Below are positions 45,945 to 48,269 of a stretch of DNA of 58,169 nucleotides, piece by piece; within the stretch, counting starts at the first letter, position 1; each line of letters starts with the position of its first letter. The notes beneath the pieces were generated by a model, which was not told the DNA's origin, made no database searches, and was given only the letters and a program-made list of their open reading frames with translations. The DNA comes from a virus, in IMG/VR virus record IMGVR_UViG_3300002461_000235, positions 1 to 58,169 of that record. One strand, 5' to 3'. A program made the translations under genes and the position numbers.

Positions 45945-48269
45945 TTGATGGTTGGTCTTTTCAGCAATATCCCTGAAGAATTGCGCCTATTAAAACAATG
46001 GTGCCTATGGAAATATGAGGACGTAGGAGCTGCAAAGCCTACTAAGGTCCCGTATCAGCCTAATGGTAAATTGGTTAGCGTAAATGATCCTTCAACTTGG
46101 TCAACATTTGAAGAATGTTTTAATGTTTTTAATACTGGTAACTATTCAGGGATTGGCTTTGTCTTTAGCAATAATGATCCTTATTCATTTATTGACTTAG
46201 ATGATGCTGAAGGTGACAATACAGTATTAGAGAGACAATTAAAAGTCTTTCATGAGTTTGATAGCTATTCTGAAGTATCTCCTTCAGGTAAAGGTTTGCA
46301 TGTTATCATTAAGGGTAAAATTTCGGCTGGCAGACGTAGAAGCAAGATAGAAGTCTACTCGTCGCAACGCTATGCAACTATGACTGGCAACGTCTATAAT
46401 CAGAAGCTTGTCATTAATGACAGGCAAGAGCTGCTTACTCGCTTATGGGAGCAGATGGGTAGTGGTCCTGTAGCTCAATCATTGTATCGTGGTGATGATA
46501 AAGAAACAGATACAGATGAAATCATTATTCAAAGAGCTACAGATGCAGTCAACGGCGATAAATTTGTTAAGCTTCTTAAAGGCGAATGGCAAGACTTATA
46601 TAATAGTCAGTCTGAAGCAGACTTTGCTTTTATCGACATGCTTGCTTTCTATACCCAAAATAGAACACAGATTATACGTTTGTTTAGGGGAAGCCCTTTG
46701 GGCTTCAGAGATAAGGCAAAACGTTCCGATTATGTATCAGGTATGATTTCAAGGTCTTTTGACCGGATGTTGCCACCACTAGATTTTGATGGTTTAAAGA
46801 ATGCGATTGAATTAAAGCTTGCTAATGATGAACCTGAATTACCTCTTGGGGATGTAGCTCAACGGTCAGAGCCAATCGCTCATAACGGTTTGGTTGCTGG
46901 TTCAAATCCAGCCATCCCTACCATTCCTCCCGGTTTATTAGGAGAGATTACATCTTTCATTTATCAAGCAGCGCCGCGTCCTGTCCCTGAAGTAGCTCTA
47001 GCGGCTGCAATTGGCTTGCTGAGCGGTATTTGCGGCAGGGCATACAACATCTCTGGCACTGGATTAAACCAATATGTGCTGCTCCTAGCCATGACAGGAG
47101 CCGGTAAGGAAGCGGCTGCATCTGGTATCAATAAGCTGATGAATACAATTAAGATGCAGGTTCCTACCAGCTCTGGATTTATTGGGCCATCAGAAATTAG
47201 CTCAGGCTCAGCACTGTTTAAATATTTGGGCAATACCAGTCAATCTTTTATTTCTCTCTTAGGCGAATTTGGTTTGCGCCTACAACAAATGAGCAGCCCC
47301 AATGCTAATGGCAGTGAAGTTTCACTTAGAAGAATGTTCCTCGATTTGTACAACAAGTCAGGATATTCCGAAATACTACATGCCTCAGTCTATTCCGACA
47401 AAGCGAATAATACCAGTGCAGTTCCCTCACCAAGCTTCTCTATACTCGGAGAAAGTACCCCTGAGCGCTTCTACGGCGCATTAAACGAGGATATGATTAG
47501 CGAAGGTCTGTTACCGCGTTTCCTTCTCATTGAATACAAAGGCAATCGTCCGCCACTCAATGAGCATCACACAGCAGTCATACCTTCTTTTTCCATTATT
47601 GAAAAGTTAGCTGCTCTAGCCGCGCAATGTGAGACTGTTAATCATTCCAATCCTAGGAGAGTTATCAATGTTCAATCCTCTCCTGAAGCTGCTAAAATGC
47701 TATATGATTTTGATAAGTATTCTGATAGCCGTATTAATTCCTCTAACAAAGAAGTTATTAGACAGCTATGGAATAGAGCGCACATTAAAGTCCTCAAGCT
47801 CTCAGCATTGATTGCTGTTGGCAACAATATGATTGAGCCCACAATTACTGCTGAAGATATGCAGTGGGCAGCTAACTTAGTTCAAGCTGACATTGCTGCT
47901 TTGACTGAGCGCTTTGAGGCTGGTGAAATTGGCAGCAATTCATTTGAGGTTAAACAAGCTGGTGAAATTATCCGCGTGATTAAGGACTACATTGTTTCTC
48001 CTTATGAGAAGGTTGAAAAATATATTCAGTTCAAGTCTACTAAAATGCATCAAGATAGGATTATTCCTTATATTTATATTCAGCGTCGTTTGATAGCCGC
48101 TGCTGCATTTCGTAATGATAAGTCTGGAGCTACTGTTTCAATGAAGCGGGCTATTCAAAACTTAATTGACTCTGATCGAATTAAGGAGCTTGGTAAAGTT
48201 TGGGCACAGGAAAAATATGGGACTTCTCAGCGGTGCTTTGCTGTTAATGATTTGTCTATGATTGAGTAA
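45945..48269 (+). CDS. AEP primase-polymerase / PriCT / DUF3987-like P-loop helicase fusion
   Basis: WCLWKYE...KVPY, FIDLD, SPSGKGLH, SEADFAFIDMLAFYT, and P-loop-like MTGAGKE. Confidence 0.8.
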   Translation: MMVGLFSNIPEELRLLKQWCLWKYEDVGAAKPTKVPYQPNGKLVSVNDPSTWSTFEECFNVFNTGNYSGIGFVFSNNDPYSFIDLDDAEGDNTVLERQLKVFHEFDSYSEVSPSGKGLHVIIKGKISAGRRRSKIEVYSSQRYATMTGNVYNQKLVINDRQELLTRLWEQMGSGPVAQSLYRGDDKETDTDEIIIQRATDAVNGDKFVKLLKGEWQDLYNSQSEADFAFIDMLAFYTQNRTQIIRLFRGSPLGFRDKAKRSDYVSGMISRSFDRMLPPLDFDGLKNAIELKLANDEPELPLGDVAQRSEPIAHNGLVAGSNPAIPTIPPGLLGEITSFIYQAAPRPVPEVALAAAIGLLSGICGRAYNISGTGLNQYVLLLAMTGAGKEAAASGINKLMNTIKMQVPTSSGFIGPSEISSGSALFKYLGNTSQSFISLLGEFGLRLQQMSSPNANGSEVSLRRMFLDLYNKSGYSEILHASVYSDKANNTSAVPSPSFSILGESTPERFYGALNEDMISEGLLPRFLLIEYKGNRPPLNEHHTAVIPSFSIIEKLAALAAQCETVNHSNPRRVINVQSSPEAAKMLYDFDKYSDSRINSSNKEVIRQLWNRAHIKVLKLSALIAVGNNMIEPTITAEDMQWAANLVQADIAALTERFEAGEIGSNSFEVKQAGEIIRVIKDYIVSPYEKVEKYIQFKSTKMHQDRIIPYIYIQRRLIAAAAFRNDKSGATVSMKRAIQNLIDSDRIKELGKVWAQEKYGTSQRCFAVNDLSMIE
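46848..46923 (+). tRNA. tRNA with anticodon CAU (Met or Ile2) and encoded CCA, embedded in frame in the primase-helicase ORF
   Basis: Hand fold: GGGGATG-TA-GCTC-AACGGTCA-GAGC-C-AATCG-CTCATAA-CGGTT-TGGTT-GCTGG-TTCAAAT-CCAGC-CATCCCT-A-CCA. Confidence 0.75.

What the first reader, a model, noticed from the sequence alone, without database searches (positions are those of the whole stretch)
46848..46923. Complete tRNA(CAU) cloverleaf with CCA embedded in frame inside the primase-helicase ORF, at the domain junction
Bases 46848-46923 fold by hand into a textbook 76-nt tRNA:
- acceptor GGGGATG/CATCCCT (six Watson-Crick pairs plus G1-U72), with U8
- D arm GCTC-AACGGTCA-GAGC
- anticodon stem AATCG/CGGTT with loop CTCATAA (anticodon CAU)
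- 5-nt variable loop
- T arm GCTGG-TTCAAAT-CCAGC with G53-C61, discriminator A and an encoded CCA

The 774-codon ORF 45945-48269 nevertheless reads straight through it as GDVAQRSEPIAHNGLVAGSNPAIPT. This is exactly where the N-terminal AEP primase/PriCT part ends and the DUF3987-like P-loop part begins (IPPGLLGEITSFIYQAAPRP...). No stop codon, and no RBS plus ATG, separates the halves.

Either one DNA segment serves both as a tRNA gene and as the linker-coding sequence, or two formerly separate genes flanking a tRNA have fused. In the first case, RNase P/Z processing would sever the primase-helicase mRNA and couple tRNA supply to the ratio of full-length to truncated protein. I know of no described case of a full tRNA doubling as an interdomain linker in a replication protein.
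Basis: partly seen in the sequence, partly recalled or inferred. Interest (0 to 1): 0.85.

Follow-up and report, generated by a model that had tools for sequence, protein, structure and literature searches.

The report
tRNA gene inside primase-helicase coding sequence
A complete, evolutionarily maintained tRNA gene sits in frame inside the flexible-linker codons of an essential phage replication protein, and about fifty related uncultured phages carry one to three such tRNAs at the same spot, an arrangement I could not find described anywhere.

Summary
Bases 46848-46923 (+) are a full-quality tRNA with anticodon CAU (ARAGORN; Rfam 65.2 bits against a threshold of 29). It lies in frame inside the uninterrupted 774-codon primase-helicase ORF 45945-48269, in a segment AlphaFold2 predicts to be a disordered interdomain linker.

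It is not a one-off or a gene fusion. Of 143 distinct homologous loci from metagenomes, 49 carry 1-3 tRNAs at this site. These are CAU, Gln-UUG, and once each Arg-UCU and Leu-UAA. All are on the sense strand and read in a stop-free frame, and the two protein domains stay in one frame across 18 different linker lengths.

The embedded tRNAs show strong compensatory covariation (99% of stem cells paired, 16-17 of 21 pairs changed on both sides). Their anticodons and T-loops are invariant and the CCA end is nearly so. Cultured relatives (Septimatrevirus, 53% identity) and the closest relative (89%) have tRNA-free linkers.

No integrase is present, so an attP origin is unlikely.

Most likely one DNA segment is both translated as a tether and released as a tRNA from the same transcript. 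Release is inferred, not shown. The CAU tRNA may be tRNA-Ile2 rather than tRNA-Met. Eight literature searches found no precedent.

The parts
45945..48269 (+). Primase-helicase ORF, 774 codons (TTG start; ATG at codon 2). It is uninterrupted and contains the tRNA.
   Evidence: ORF list. Pfam NrS1-1_pol-like_HBD plus DUF3987. 53% identical over its full length to Pseudomonas phage 73 gp036 'DNA primase'. More than 2,200 homologues in the protein database.
45945..46823 (+). N-terminal primase-polymerase domain (residues 1-293). It includes the NrS-1-type helix-bundle domain at 46608-46736.
   Evidence: Pfam PF22763 at residues 222-264. AlphaFold2 gives a well-folded region up to helix 280-293. 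Many invariant columns in alignment A1.
46824..46919 (+). Codons of the disordered interdomain linker (about residues 294-325). This is the hypervariable region of the family.
   Evidence: AlphaFold2 pLDDT below 50 and coil for P0001 residues 293-324. Linker length varies from 31 to 158 residues and the sequence is not conserved among homologues.
46848..46923 (+). tRNA gene, 76 nt, anticodon CAU. It is of elongator type (tRNA-Ile2-like or tRNA-Met) with an encoded CCA. It occupies codons 302-326 plus the first base of codon 327.
   Evidence: ARAGORN. Rfam 65.2 bits. 27 distinct orthologous in-ORF copies have 99.3% of stem cells paired and 16 of 21 pairs with changes on both sides. Only frame 0 is stop-free.
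46881..46883 (+). Anticodon CAT, read by the ribosome as the His codon of the linker peptide (…A-H-N…).
   Evidence: Sequence. C32-A38 is invariant in all 27 copies, although synonymous changes would be allowed for the peptide.
46920..48269 (+). C-terminal DUF3987-type P-loop helicase domain. It starts at the conserved motif (I/L)PPGLLGEI directly after the tRNA.
   Evidence: Pfam PF13148 at residues 479-647. In bacterial chromosomes the same domain exists as a stand-alone ~470-aa gene that begins at this boundary (L176, L179).

Best explanation
Bases 46848-46923 are a genuine, functional tRNA gene with anticodon CAU. It is of elongator type, either tRNA-Ile2 reading AUA or tRNA-Met. It is nested in the sense orientation and in frame within the codons for the disordered tether that joins the primase-polymerase and helicase domains of an essential phage replication protein.

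The same DNA is used twice:
1. Ribosomes translate through it. This gives a 25-residue Gly/Ser/Ala/Pro/Asn-rich stretch whose sequence is dictated by the tRNA and tolerated because the linker only has to be flexible.
2. The primase-helicase transcript, or its decay intermediates, is cut by host RNase P at the 5' end and by 3'-processing nucleases. This releases the tRNA, which supplements decoding of A-ending codons for this 40% G+C phage.

Each transcript can therefore be translated and later, or instead, yield a tRNA.

The arrangement is old and is maintained by selection in a whole clade of ~58-kb uncultured virulent phages. The linker acts as a slot holding 0-3 tRNA genes (CAU, Gln-UUG, rarely Arg-UCU or Leu-UAA). 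Its contents are gained, lost or exchanged, probably by recombination between the highly conserved flanks.

Shown here: tRNA quality, structural covariation, open reading frame and frame continuity, strand bias, linker disorder and phylogenetic distribution.

Inferred: co-transcription, nuclease processing, aminoacylation and decoding role, and the way cassettes move.
For: **tRNA quality.** ARAGORN and Rfam give 65.2 bits. The embedded tRNAs scored in relatives reach 48.7-72 bits (nearly all 55-72) against a threshold of 29.

**Recurrence.**
- 49 of 143 distinct homologous ORFs carry 70 tRNAs inside the ORF: 37 CAU, 30 Gln, and 1 each Arg, Leu and 'Tyr'.
- 73 of the 120 best protein clusters carry the tRNA-coded peptide motifs.
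- All 6 IMG/VR occurrences of this tRNA core lie in the primase linker.

**Selection for RNA structure.**
- CAU set: 99.3% of stem cells paired, 16 of 21 pairs changed on both sides, covariation 0.609 against 0.219 in shuffles (0 of 500 reach it), and 29-49% paired when partners are slid.
- Gln set: 98.5% paired, 17 of 21 pairs, covariation 0.766 against 0.205.
- The anticodon loop, U8, A14, G18, G53-T54-T55-C56, A58, C61 and A73 are invariant and the CCA end is nearly so.
- Variation sits in the stems (entropy 0.73) rather than the loops (0.36), and is only weakly ordered by codon position in the CAU set.

**Selection for translation through the tRNA.**
- Every tRNA is read in a stop-free frame, which for CAU is the only one.
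- Both domains are in one frame in all loci, across 18 linker lengths.
- A structure-preserving neutral simulation predicts in-frame stops in 10-21% of CAU variants and 5-16% of Gln variants. None is observed.
- No start codon follows the tRNA.

**Same-strand requirement.** No embedded tRNA is antisense, although antisense tRNA-Gln would have an open frame in 19 of 19 cases.

**Long co-residence.** tRNA identity tracks protein identity (Spearman rho 0.58 and 0.65).

**Disordered linker.** AlphaFold2.

**Not a fusion.** Tether-only homologues exist.

**No lysogeny genes.**

**Decoding role is plausible.** All tRNAs of these phages read A-ending codons. The phage uses ATA 133 times, 16% of its Ile codons. 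The nearest E. coli tRNA is tRNA-Ile2.
Against: - There are no expression data of any kind. Nothing shows that a 76-nt RNA is made, charged or used, or that the 774-aa protein accumulates.
- RNase P cleavage inside a coding region would destroy the mRNA of an essential gene. That is a cost with no demonstrated compensation.
- The closest relative (89% identity) and all cultured relatives lack the tRNA, so it is dispensable.
- The covariation sets were ascertained with ARAGORN. Copies that no longer fold would have been excluded, although nhmmer and Rfam found no decayed copies.
- An open frame across a tRNA is not rare by chance.
- The stop-avoidance statistic is modest, and the sequences are not independent.
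- A dedicated internal promoter cannot be excluded. The sigma-70 scan was uninformative (9 sites against 8.4 expected).
- The host is unknown.
Confidence: 0.78

Rival explanations
1. Conserved tRNA-like cis element rather than a decoding tRNA. The cloverleaf is kept because RNase P cleavage of the mRNA limits the dosage of a toxic replication protein, or because the folded DNA or RNA serves as a replication origin or primase-loading site. Origins often lie inside initiator genes. No functional aminoacyl-tRNA would be produced.
For: The covariation proves selection on the fold, not on decoding. The element lies in the gene of the protein that would act at an origin. It is dispensable in close relatives. 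Some copies lack CCA or have odd arms (L132, and the L007 'Tyr' at 48.7 bits).
Against: A cleavage or origin signal would not need an invariant anticodon and anticodon loop. It would not need G18, T54-T55-C56, A58, discriminator A73 and a nearly always encoded CCA. It would not need different isoacceptors (CAU, UUG, UCU, UAA) that all read A-ending codons, side by side in variable order. Rfam scores equal those of free-standing tRNAs.
Confidence: 0.1
2. Selfish mobile cassette. The tRNAs, sometimes with a homing endonuclease gene, are passengers that spread by homing or recombination into the only insertion-tolerant spot of a highly conserved essential gene. They persist because imprecise loss would break the reading frame, not because co-expression helps the phage. 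This is compatible with the tRNA being functional. It is a rival only for why the tRNA is located here.
For: The distribution on the protein tree is patchy, with the window [CAU] sister to L009 [none]. Replacement is cassette-like and bounded by conserved flanks. Some pairs are discordant, for example Gln tRNAs 92% identical in proteins only 57% identical. In L259 a complete HNH endonuclease gene sits in the +1 frame of the same linker and ends 5 nt before the tRNA. An intein-bearing homologue exists (P0083).
Against: Only 1 of about 260 loci has the HNH gene. tRNA and protein divergence are positively correlated, which indicates mostly vertical inheritance. The strict sense orientation points to an expression requirement rather than mere tolerance.
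Confidence: 0.3
3. attP or integration relic. The tRNA sequence is the phage attachment site matching a host tRNA gene, as in SSV1-type elements whose attP lies inside a gene, or a scar of such an event.
For: tRNA genes are the commonest integration targets. An attP that copies host tRNAs could mimic covariation if the hosts differ.
Against: No integrase, repressor or excisionase was found among any ORF of 116 aa or more (PHROGs and Pfam). The tRNAs are full length including the 5' half, whereas attP cores normally cover the 3' part. Up to three different tRNAs lie side by side in variable order. A scan of 185,579 species genomes found no primase gene split at a tRNA. The C-terminal-only matches are stand-alone genes with their own ATG and no adjacent tRNA.
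Confidence: 0.03
4. Two separately translated genes with tRNA(s) between them. On this reading the continuous ORF is incidental.
For: The helicase domain exists as a stand-alone gene in some bacterial elements. Stop-free frames across tRNAs occur by chance.
Against: The two halves are in the same frame with no stop in all 49 tRNA-bearing loci and across 18 different linker lengths. The expectation is one in three per independent length change. There is no start codon or conserved Met between the tRNA and the conserved PPGLLGEI, which often follows within 0-3 codons. Homologues without a tRNA are single polypeptides.
Confidence: 0.03

Closest known systems
Phage-encoded tRNA genes (intergenic tRNA clusters of T4, T5 and many large phages)
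   Same: A canonical cloverleaf tRNA with an encoded CCA. It reads a codon favoured by an AT-rich phage. The window also has an ordinary intergenic pair, Leu-UAA and Thr-UGU, at 4261-4422.
   Different: Known phage tRNA genes lie between protein genes, and annotation practice masks them from gene calling (PMC6853651). Here the whole tRNA, from base 1 to CCA, is inside a coding sequence and is translated.
tRNA-mRNA co-transcripts processed by RNase P (E. coli thrU-tyrU-glyT-thrT-tufB and metY-nusA-infB operons; mitochondrial 'tRNA punctuation'). Recalled from my own knowledge.
   Same: The tRNA has the same orientation as the protein gene, has no evident promoter of its own, and would have to be released from an mRNA-containing transcript.
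   Different: In those systems the tRNA lies between cistrons, so cleavage separates intact messages. Here cleavage would cut one cistron in two, and the tRNA bases are also codons.
Cis-acting DNA elements inside linker-coding regions of replication initiator genes (for example the lambda origin within gene O). Recalled from my own knowledge.
   Same: A second, non-protein function is placed in the segment of a replication gene that encodes a flexible interdomain connector. That is the part of the protein most tolerant of imposed sequence.
   Different: The embedded element here is an RNA gene with tRNA invariants and an anticodon, not iterons or an AT-rich origin region.
SSV1-type integrases with attP inside the gene (a tRNA-matching sequence within an ORF). 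Recalled from my own knowledge.
   Same: tRNA-derived sequence is read in frame within a viral protein gene.
   Different: Those carry a partial tRNA segment plus an integrase and split the gene on integration. Here there are complete tRNAs, sometimes three, with no integrase and no split copies in genomes.
Overlapping or dual-function genes (viral overprinting; dual-function sRNAs such as SgrS/SgrT and RNAIII/hld). Recalled from my own knowledge.
   Same: One nucleotide stretch is under two simultaneous constraints, RNA structure and an open reading frame.
   Different: The RNA partner is a tRNA and the protein partner is a large essential enzyme. In known dual-function RNAs, a small peptide is encoded in a regulatory RNA.

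Membership tests
Canonical tRNA (Rfam RF00005) | Score at or above the family's gathering threshold (29 bits), with the full 71-position model matched | tested here: met
   65.2 bits, model positions 1-71, E = 5.9e-12. ARAGORN also calls it.
Canonical tRNA (Rfam RF00005) | Cloverleaf with a 7-bp acceptor stem, 4-bp D stem, 5-bp anticodon stem with a 7-nt loop and U33, and a 5-bp T stem with G53 T54 T55 C56 A58 C61 | tested here: met
   Read directly from the sequence. These positions are invariant in 27 orthologues.
Canonical tRNA (Rfam RF00005) | Base pairs maintained by compensatory substitutions among orthologues | tested here: met
   99.3% of cells paired, 16 of 21 pairs with changes on both sides, 0 of 500 shuffles reach the observed score, and slid controls are 29-49% paired. 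Caveat: the sequences were ascertained with ARAGORN.
Canonical tRNA (Rfam RF00005) | Transcribed, processed to 76 nt, aminoacylated and used in translation | not testable with these tools
   No transcriptome or tRNA-seq data, and no cultured representative.
Bacterial initiator tRNA-fMet | Unpaired 1:72, three consecutive G-C pairs at 29-31:39-41, and A11:U24 | tested here: not met
   G1-U72 is paired. The anticodon stem is AATCG/CGGTT. Position 11:24 is C-G.
tRNA-Ile2 (lysidine-modified CAU, reads AUA) versus elongator tRNA-Met | CAU anticodon plus isotype-specific determinants recognised by TilS/IleRS rather than MetRS | tested here: inconclusive
   CAU is present. The best E. coli matches are CAT-anticodon genes annotated tRNA-Ile (75-81% identity), and some phage matches are annotated tRNA-Ile while others are tRNA-Met. 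Acceptor-stem positions 4-5 vary among orthologues. No isotype-specific model was available.
Primase-helicase of the Septimatrevirus gp36 type (AEP/NrS-1-like primase-polymerase fused to a DUF3987 helicase) | Full-length homology to characterised or annotated members as one polypeptide | tested here: met
   53% identity over residues 6-767 to Pseudomonas phage 73 gp036. Pfam PF22763 and PF13148 both exceed their cut-offs.
tRNA-targeting integrative element (attP within a gene, SSV1-like) | Integrase gene in the same genome | tested here: not met
   PHROGs or Pfam on all ORFs of 116 aa or more found replication, packaging, head, tail and lysis genes, ParB and a GIY-YIG endonuclease, but no integrase.
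tRNA-targeting integrative element (attP within a gene, SSV1-like) | Integrated copies with the host gene split at a tRNA | tested here: not met
   A scan of one genome for each of 185,579 species found no such split. The partial matches are stand-alone helicase genes without an adjacent tRNA.
tRNA-mRNA co-transcription unit processed by RNase P | tRNA on the same strand as, and within the transcript of, a protein gene | tested here: inconclusive
   70 of 70 embedded tRNAs are on the sense strand, although antisense Gln would fit an ORF. No promoter enrichment. The transcript itself was not observed.
tRNA-mRNA co-transcription unit processed by RNase P | tRNA located between cistrons, so that cleavage leaves the messages intact | tested here: not met
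   The tRNA lies at codons 302-327 of a 774-codon ORF.
Intein or intron-type in-frame mobile insertion | Self-splicing domain or ribozyme, with or without a homing endonuclease | tested here: not met
   The insert is only the 76-nt tRNA. Rfam finds no intron and Pfam finds no intein domain in the window protein. Relatives do show an HNH gene (L259) and an intein (P0083) in the same gene.

The most novel reading that the evidence does not exclude
The primase-helicase linker is a dedicated slot for tRNA genes. Excision of the tRNA from the mRNA is a built-in regulatory switch: each early transcript is partitioned between making a replication enzyme and making a tRNA. Primase-helicase dosage would then be coupled to translation initiation rate and to host RNase P activity. 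The cassettes, at times with an HNH endonuclease overprinted on the same linker, would home between phages through the conserved flanks. This would be a new class of gene overlap, with a sense-strand tRNA translated as protein, and a new route by which phages acquire and exchange tRNAs.
Probability: 0.3. Interest if true: 0.92.

Novelty: new variant of a known kind. Interest (0 to 1): 0.86.

Why it matters
tRNA genes and protein-coding sequences are treated as mutually exclusive. Gene callers mask tRNAs (PMC6853651), and overlaps are normally dismissed as annotation errors.

Here complete tRNAs are maintained for long evolutionary periods inside an essential coding sequence. Both constraints are visibly active: compensatory stem changes, and a preserved reading frame.

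If the tRNA is released from the mRNA, this is a natural case in which one transcript must choose between being a message and being a tRNA. That makes several things directly testable:
- competition between translation and RNA processing;
- the tolerance of protein linkers to arbitrary imposed sequence;
- how phages gain and swap tRNAs.

It also warns that standard annotation pipelines will either split such genes or drop the tRNA.

In practice, a tRNA-encoding linker is a ready-made design for co-expressing a tRNA and a protein from one compact cassette.

Tried and rejected
- **Close cultured relatives.** Megablast of the gene and of 24 kb of the window against GenBank phages found nothing. 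tblastn with a tRNA-coded linker peptide found no cultured phage with this arrangement; identity across the linker was at most 39%.
- **Other small phages with a similar CAU tRNA.** In Vibrio phage IKEMa6-1 and Virus Rctr41k the tRNA is intergenic, so they are not comparable.
- **attP hypothesis.** Rejected: no integrase and no split gene in bacterial genomes.
- **Fusion of two genes.** Rejected: single-polypeptide homologues with tRNA-free linkers.
- **Decayed tRNA copies in tRNA-less linkers.** None found by nhmmer at E up to 0.01. Rfam found none at E up to 10 in the closest relative L009.
- **Internal sigma-70 promoter upstream of the tRNA.** The scan gave 9 sites against 8.4 expected, so it is uninformative.
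- **Do tRNA-less relatives carry the CAU tRNA elsewhere?** I tried to reach their tRNA clusters with the window's tRNA-Thr core. It matched 64 unrelated contigs and none of the relatives, so the question stays open. Those contigs were reused as a control set.
- **HNH genes in the other linkers.** Only L259 has one.
- **Literature.** Eight full-text searches and two papers read gave no description of a tRNA nested in frame in a phage or bacterial coding sequence. The library does not cover most subscription journals.
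Full report
**1. 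The observation**

ARAGORN predicts three tRNAs in the window. One is tRNA(cat) at exactly 46848-46923 on the + strand. The Rfam tRNA model scores it 65.2 bits (gathering score 29, full model matched). That is indistinguishable from the free-standing tRNA-Thr at 4347-4419, which scores 66.1 bits.

The mechanical ORF list shows a 774-codon ORF at 45945-48269 that runs straight through the tRNA as GDVAQRSEPIAHNGLVAGSNPAIPT. Pfam places an NrS-1-type primase-polymerase helix-bundle domain at residues 222-264 and DUF3987 at 479-647.

An AlphaFold2 model built on 27 homologues gives a coil of pLDDT below 50 for residues 293-324. This coil lies between helices 280-293 and 329-341, so the tRNA-coded residues fall in a disordered interdomain tether.

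**2. Not a fusion and not a one-off**

The nearest cultured relatives are Septimatrevirus phages such as Pseudomonas phage 73. Their gp036 is 53% identical along its whole length and is a single polypeptide. Its linker is non-conserved, of similar length and free of any tRNA.

The large protein database holds more than 2,200 homologues. The best 120 (56-100% identity) range from 642 to 1,102 residues, most between 750 and 827, and the length differences I examined lie in the linker. Many linkers carry one or both of two recurrent peptides, G[SA]VAQRLEPxAHNGLVAGSNPAxPT and SSNGRTxAFDAxNxGSNPSAAxN. By regular expression, 73 of the 120 carry at least one.

I then fetched the DNA of 160 homologous loci from metagenomes and IMG/VR, 6 from an earlier IMG/VR scan and 17 from genomes. 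These peptides turn out to be tRNA genes read in frame. Of 143 distinct ORFs, 49 contain 70 tRNA genes:
- 37 CAU;
- 30 Gln-UUG;
- one Arg-UCU (L135, which has three tRNAs separated by 2 nt);
- one Leu-UAA (L162);
- one aberrant 'Tyr' (L007).

Both orders, CAU-Gln and Gln-CAU, occur. Rfam scores for the embedded tRNAs tested are 48.7-72 bits, nearly all 55-72. All six IMG/VR contigs that contain the window-type tRNA core have it in the primase linker.

**3. Two constraints act on the same bases**

*RNA constraint.* In 27 distinct embedded CAU tRNAs, 99.3% of stem cells form standard pairs and 16 of 21 pairs show changes on both sides. The covariation score is 0.609 against 0.219 in column shuffles (0 of 500 reach it). 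With partners slid by 1-3 columns, only 29-49% pair. In 19 distinct Gln tRNAs the figures are 98.5%, 17 of 21, and 0.766 against 0.205.

Several positions never vary: the anticodon loop, U8, A14, G18, G53-T54-T55-C56, A58, C61 and the discriminator. The CCA end is nearly invariant.

Variation is concentrated in the stems (entropy 0.73) rather than the loops (0.36). In the CAU set it is only weakly ordered by codon position, at 0.49/0.59/0.63; the Gln set shows a clearer rise, 0.55/0.71/0.89. The conserved residues of the peptide (VAQ, EP, AHN, GSxP) are simply the translations of invariant tRNA nucleotides.

One caveat applies. The sets were ascertained with ARAGORN. However, nhmmer found no decayed copies in tRNA-less ORFs, and Rfam found no trace in the closest relative.

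*Coding constraint.*
- Every embedded tRNA is read in a stop-free frame. For all 37 CAU tRNAs it is the only such frame. The other two hit TAG in GTAGCTC or TAA in the anticodon loop, and this also forces an 8-nt D loop.
- The N- and C-terminal domains are in the same frame, with no stop, in all tRNA-bearing loci and across 18 different linker lengths.
- The conserved start of the helicase domain, (L/I)PPGLLGEI, usually follows the CCA within 0-3 codons. No start codon intervenes.
- A structure-preserving neutral simulation predicts in-frame stops in 10-21% of CAU variants and 5-16% of Gln variants, yet none is observed. This is modest support, because the sequences are related.

*Orientation.* All 70 embedded tRNAs are on the sense strand. 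Antisense tRNA-Gln would offer an open frame in 19 of 19 cases, so the bias is not forced by stop codons. It points to a need to be transcribed with the gene.

**4. Controls**

A stop-free frame across a tRNA is not unusual in itself. For 164 tRNAs in 64 unrelated viral contigs, the spanning open frame has a median of 72 codons and a maximum of 334 (L217, four tRNAs). In those cases the tRNAs lie upstream of the real start codon. The largest number of open codons on both sides is 95, against 301 and 447 for the window tRNA. The window's own intergenic tRNAs, Leu and Thr, are spanned by at most 56 codons.

**5. Evolutionary pattern**

A neighbour-joining tree was built on 743 well-aligned protein columns. 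The tRNA-bearing linkers fall in the clade that contains the window, most of it from contigs of about 58 kb. Their distribution there is patchy. The window [CAU] is sister to L009 [none, 89% identity], and Met+Gln, Gln+Met, Met-only, Gln-only and empty linkers are interleaved. The Septimatrevirus-like clade is empty except for L162 [Leu].

A DNA alignment of the window with L009 shows ~85% identity up to the first bases of the tRNA and again from CCTCCCGG onwards. Unrelated sequence lies between, so this is a cassette-like replacement.

tRNA identity correlates with protein identity (Spearman rho 0.58 for CAU and 0.65 for Gln). This indicates long vertical co-residence. A few pairs are discordant, such as Gln tRNAs 92% identical in proteins 57% identical, and these suggest exchange.

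In one relative (L259, protein P0016) a complete 110-aa HNH endonuclease gene (PHROG phrog_2255, E = 4e-23) lies in the +1 frame of the same linker. It ends 5 nt before the tRNA, and the primase frame stays open across all 333 nt of it. Another homologue carries intein domains (P0083). The linker therefore behaves as a landing pad for accessory and mobile DNA, subject to the condition that the host frame remains open.

**6. Alternatives tested**

*attP or integration relic.* The window is a complete ~58-kb phage genome. It encodes terminase, portal, major head, tail and lysis genes, DNA polymerase, a processivity factor, a helicase, a Cas4-type exonuclease, SSB, Sak4, ParB and a GIY-YIG endonuclease. 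It has no integrase.

A scan of one genome for each of 185,579 species found no primase gene split at a tRNA. Matches restricted to residues 325 onwards are stand-alone helicase genes of ~470 aa with their own ATG and no neighbouring tRNA (Stenotrophobium, Anianabacter). This also confirms that the linker marks a true domain boundary.

*Dedicated promoter.* The sigma-70 scan is at background level, so it is uninformative.

**7. Isotype**

The tRNA is not an initiator. Position 1:72 is paired, the anticodon stem is AATCG/CGGTT, and 11:24 is C-G.

Its best E. coli matches are CAT-anticodon genes that RefSeq annotates as tRNA-Ile, meaning tRNA-Ile2. Matches in GenBank phages are annotated partly tRNA-Ile and partly tRNA-Met.

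All other tRNAs in this phage group read A-ending codons (UUA, ACA, CAA, AGA). The phage (about 40% G+C) uses ATA for 16% of its Ile codons. tRNA-Ile2 reading AUA is therefore at least as likely as tRNA-Met, but no isotype-specific model was available.

**8. Most likely mechanism**

The evidence shows a functional-looking tRNA gene and a translated linker that share the same bases. They are on the same strand, and the arrangement is maintained across a large viral clade.

I infer that the tRNA has no transcript of its own. It would be released from the early primase-helicase transcript by host RNase P and 3'-end nucleases, either in competition with translation or from decay intermediates after the message has been used. 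The linker would tolerate the imposed peptide because it only has to be flexible. Cassette content would change by recombination through the conserved flanks, occasionally with endonuclease help. None of these steps could be tested with sequence data.

**9. Comparison with known systems and novelty**

The parts are ordinary: a canonical tRNA and a Septimatrevirus-type primase-helicase. The nearest known situations are:
- intergenic phage tRNA clusters;
- tRNA-mRNA co-transcripts cut by RNase P (the tufB and metY operons, and mitochondrial punctuation);
- cis elements inside linker codons of initiator genes (the lambda origin in gene O);
- tRNA-matching attP sites inside SSV1-type integrase genes;
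- dual-function RNAs.

These comparisons rest on my own knowledge, not on a tool result. None of them has a complete tRNA translated in frame within a large essential protein.

Eight full-text literature searches found no description. Standard practice masks tRNAs from gene calling (PMC6853651). No cultured phage in GenBank shows the arrangement.

I rate it a new variant of known kinds (phage tRNA genes and overlapping genes), with high interest. The main uncertainty is the complete lack of expression data.

Noticed in passing
window 50690-50829 (+): A tRNA-like element of 140 nt in an intergenic gap. It has a perfect 7-bp acceptor stem, a T arm (GGAGG-TTCGACC-CCTTC) and a discriminator A, but no encoded CCA. 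About 78 nt are inserted in the anticodon and variable region, forming two hairpins that each contain the palindrome GTTGCAAC. Rfam tRNA scores it 36.1 bits. ARAGORN calls it only with the intron option, as 'Phe(gaa) with a 55-nt intron'. The predicted fold energy is -47.3 kcal/mol. It has no homologue in any fetched locus. Its nature is unexplained.
   Followed up: partly
L259 2381-2713 (+), relative of the window gene (protein P0016): A complete 110-aa HNH endonuclease gene (PHROG E = 4e-23) lies in the +1 frame inside the primase-helicase linker and ends 5 nt before the embedded tRNA (2719-2791). The primase frame stays open through all 333 nt, so two proteins and a tRNA are packed into one linker. 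It was found in only 1 of about 260 loci.
   Followed up: yes
window 4261-4345 and 4347-4422 (+): Free-standing tRNA-Leu(taa) and tRNA-Thr(tgt) lie 1 nt apart in an intergenic region. A 41-nt core of this tRNA-Thr occurs identically in 64 otherwise unrelated IMG/VR contigs, so it is a very widespread phage or host tRNA type.
   Followed up: partly
window 41774-42337 (-): A GIY-YIG-type homing endonuclease gene (PHROG phrog_314, E = 8e-29) lies between the SSB gene and the region leading to the Sak4 gene in the leftward replication module.
   Followed up: no
protein P0083 (1,102 aa): This homologue of the primase-helicase has Pfam intein/homing-endonuclease domains (PF05203, PF14528). The same gene therefore also hosts an intein in some phages.
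   Followed up: no
L176 1468-2880 (Stenotrophobium rhamnosiphilum) and L179 1474-2877 (Anianabacter salinae): In bacterial chromosomes the DUF3987 helicase domain is a stand-alone gene of ~470 aa. It starts about 10 codons before the point where the window protein's linker ends, and no tRNA is nearby.
   Followed up: partly
L217 2778-3099 (-), unrelated IMG/VR contig: Four consecutive tRNAs (Cys, Ser, Pro, Trp) all lie in a single 334-codon stop-free sense frame that continues into a downstream gene. This is probably chance plus an upstream extension of the real ORF, because only 12 codons precede the tRNAs.
   Followed up: partly
L002 1495-4058 (Pseudomonas phage PSV3, OP712479.1): In this GenBank record the homologous primase-helicase is annotated as three consecutive 'hypothetical protein' CDS, and tblastn matches it in three pieces. 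This suggests frameshifts or sequencing errors rather than a real split.
   Followed up: no
L007 3847-3924 and L132 1380-1453: Two embedded tRNAs look partly degenerate. L007 is called 'Tyr(gta)' at 48.7 bits, with an irregular anticodon arm and no CCA. L132 CAU lacks CCA and abuts the next tRNA. They are possible decaying or diverging copies.
   Followed up: no
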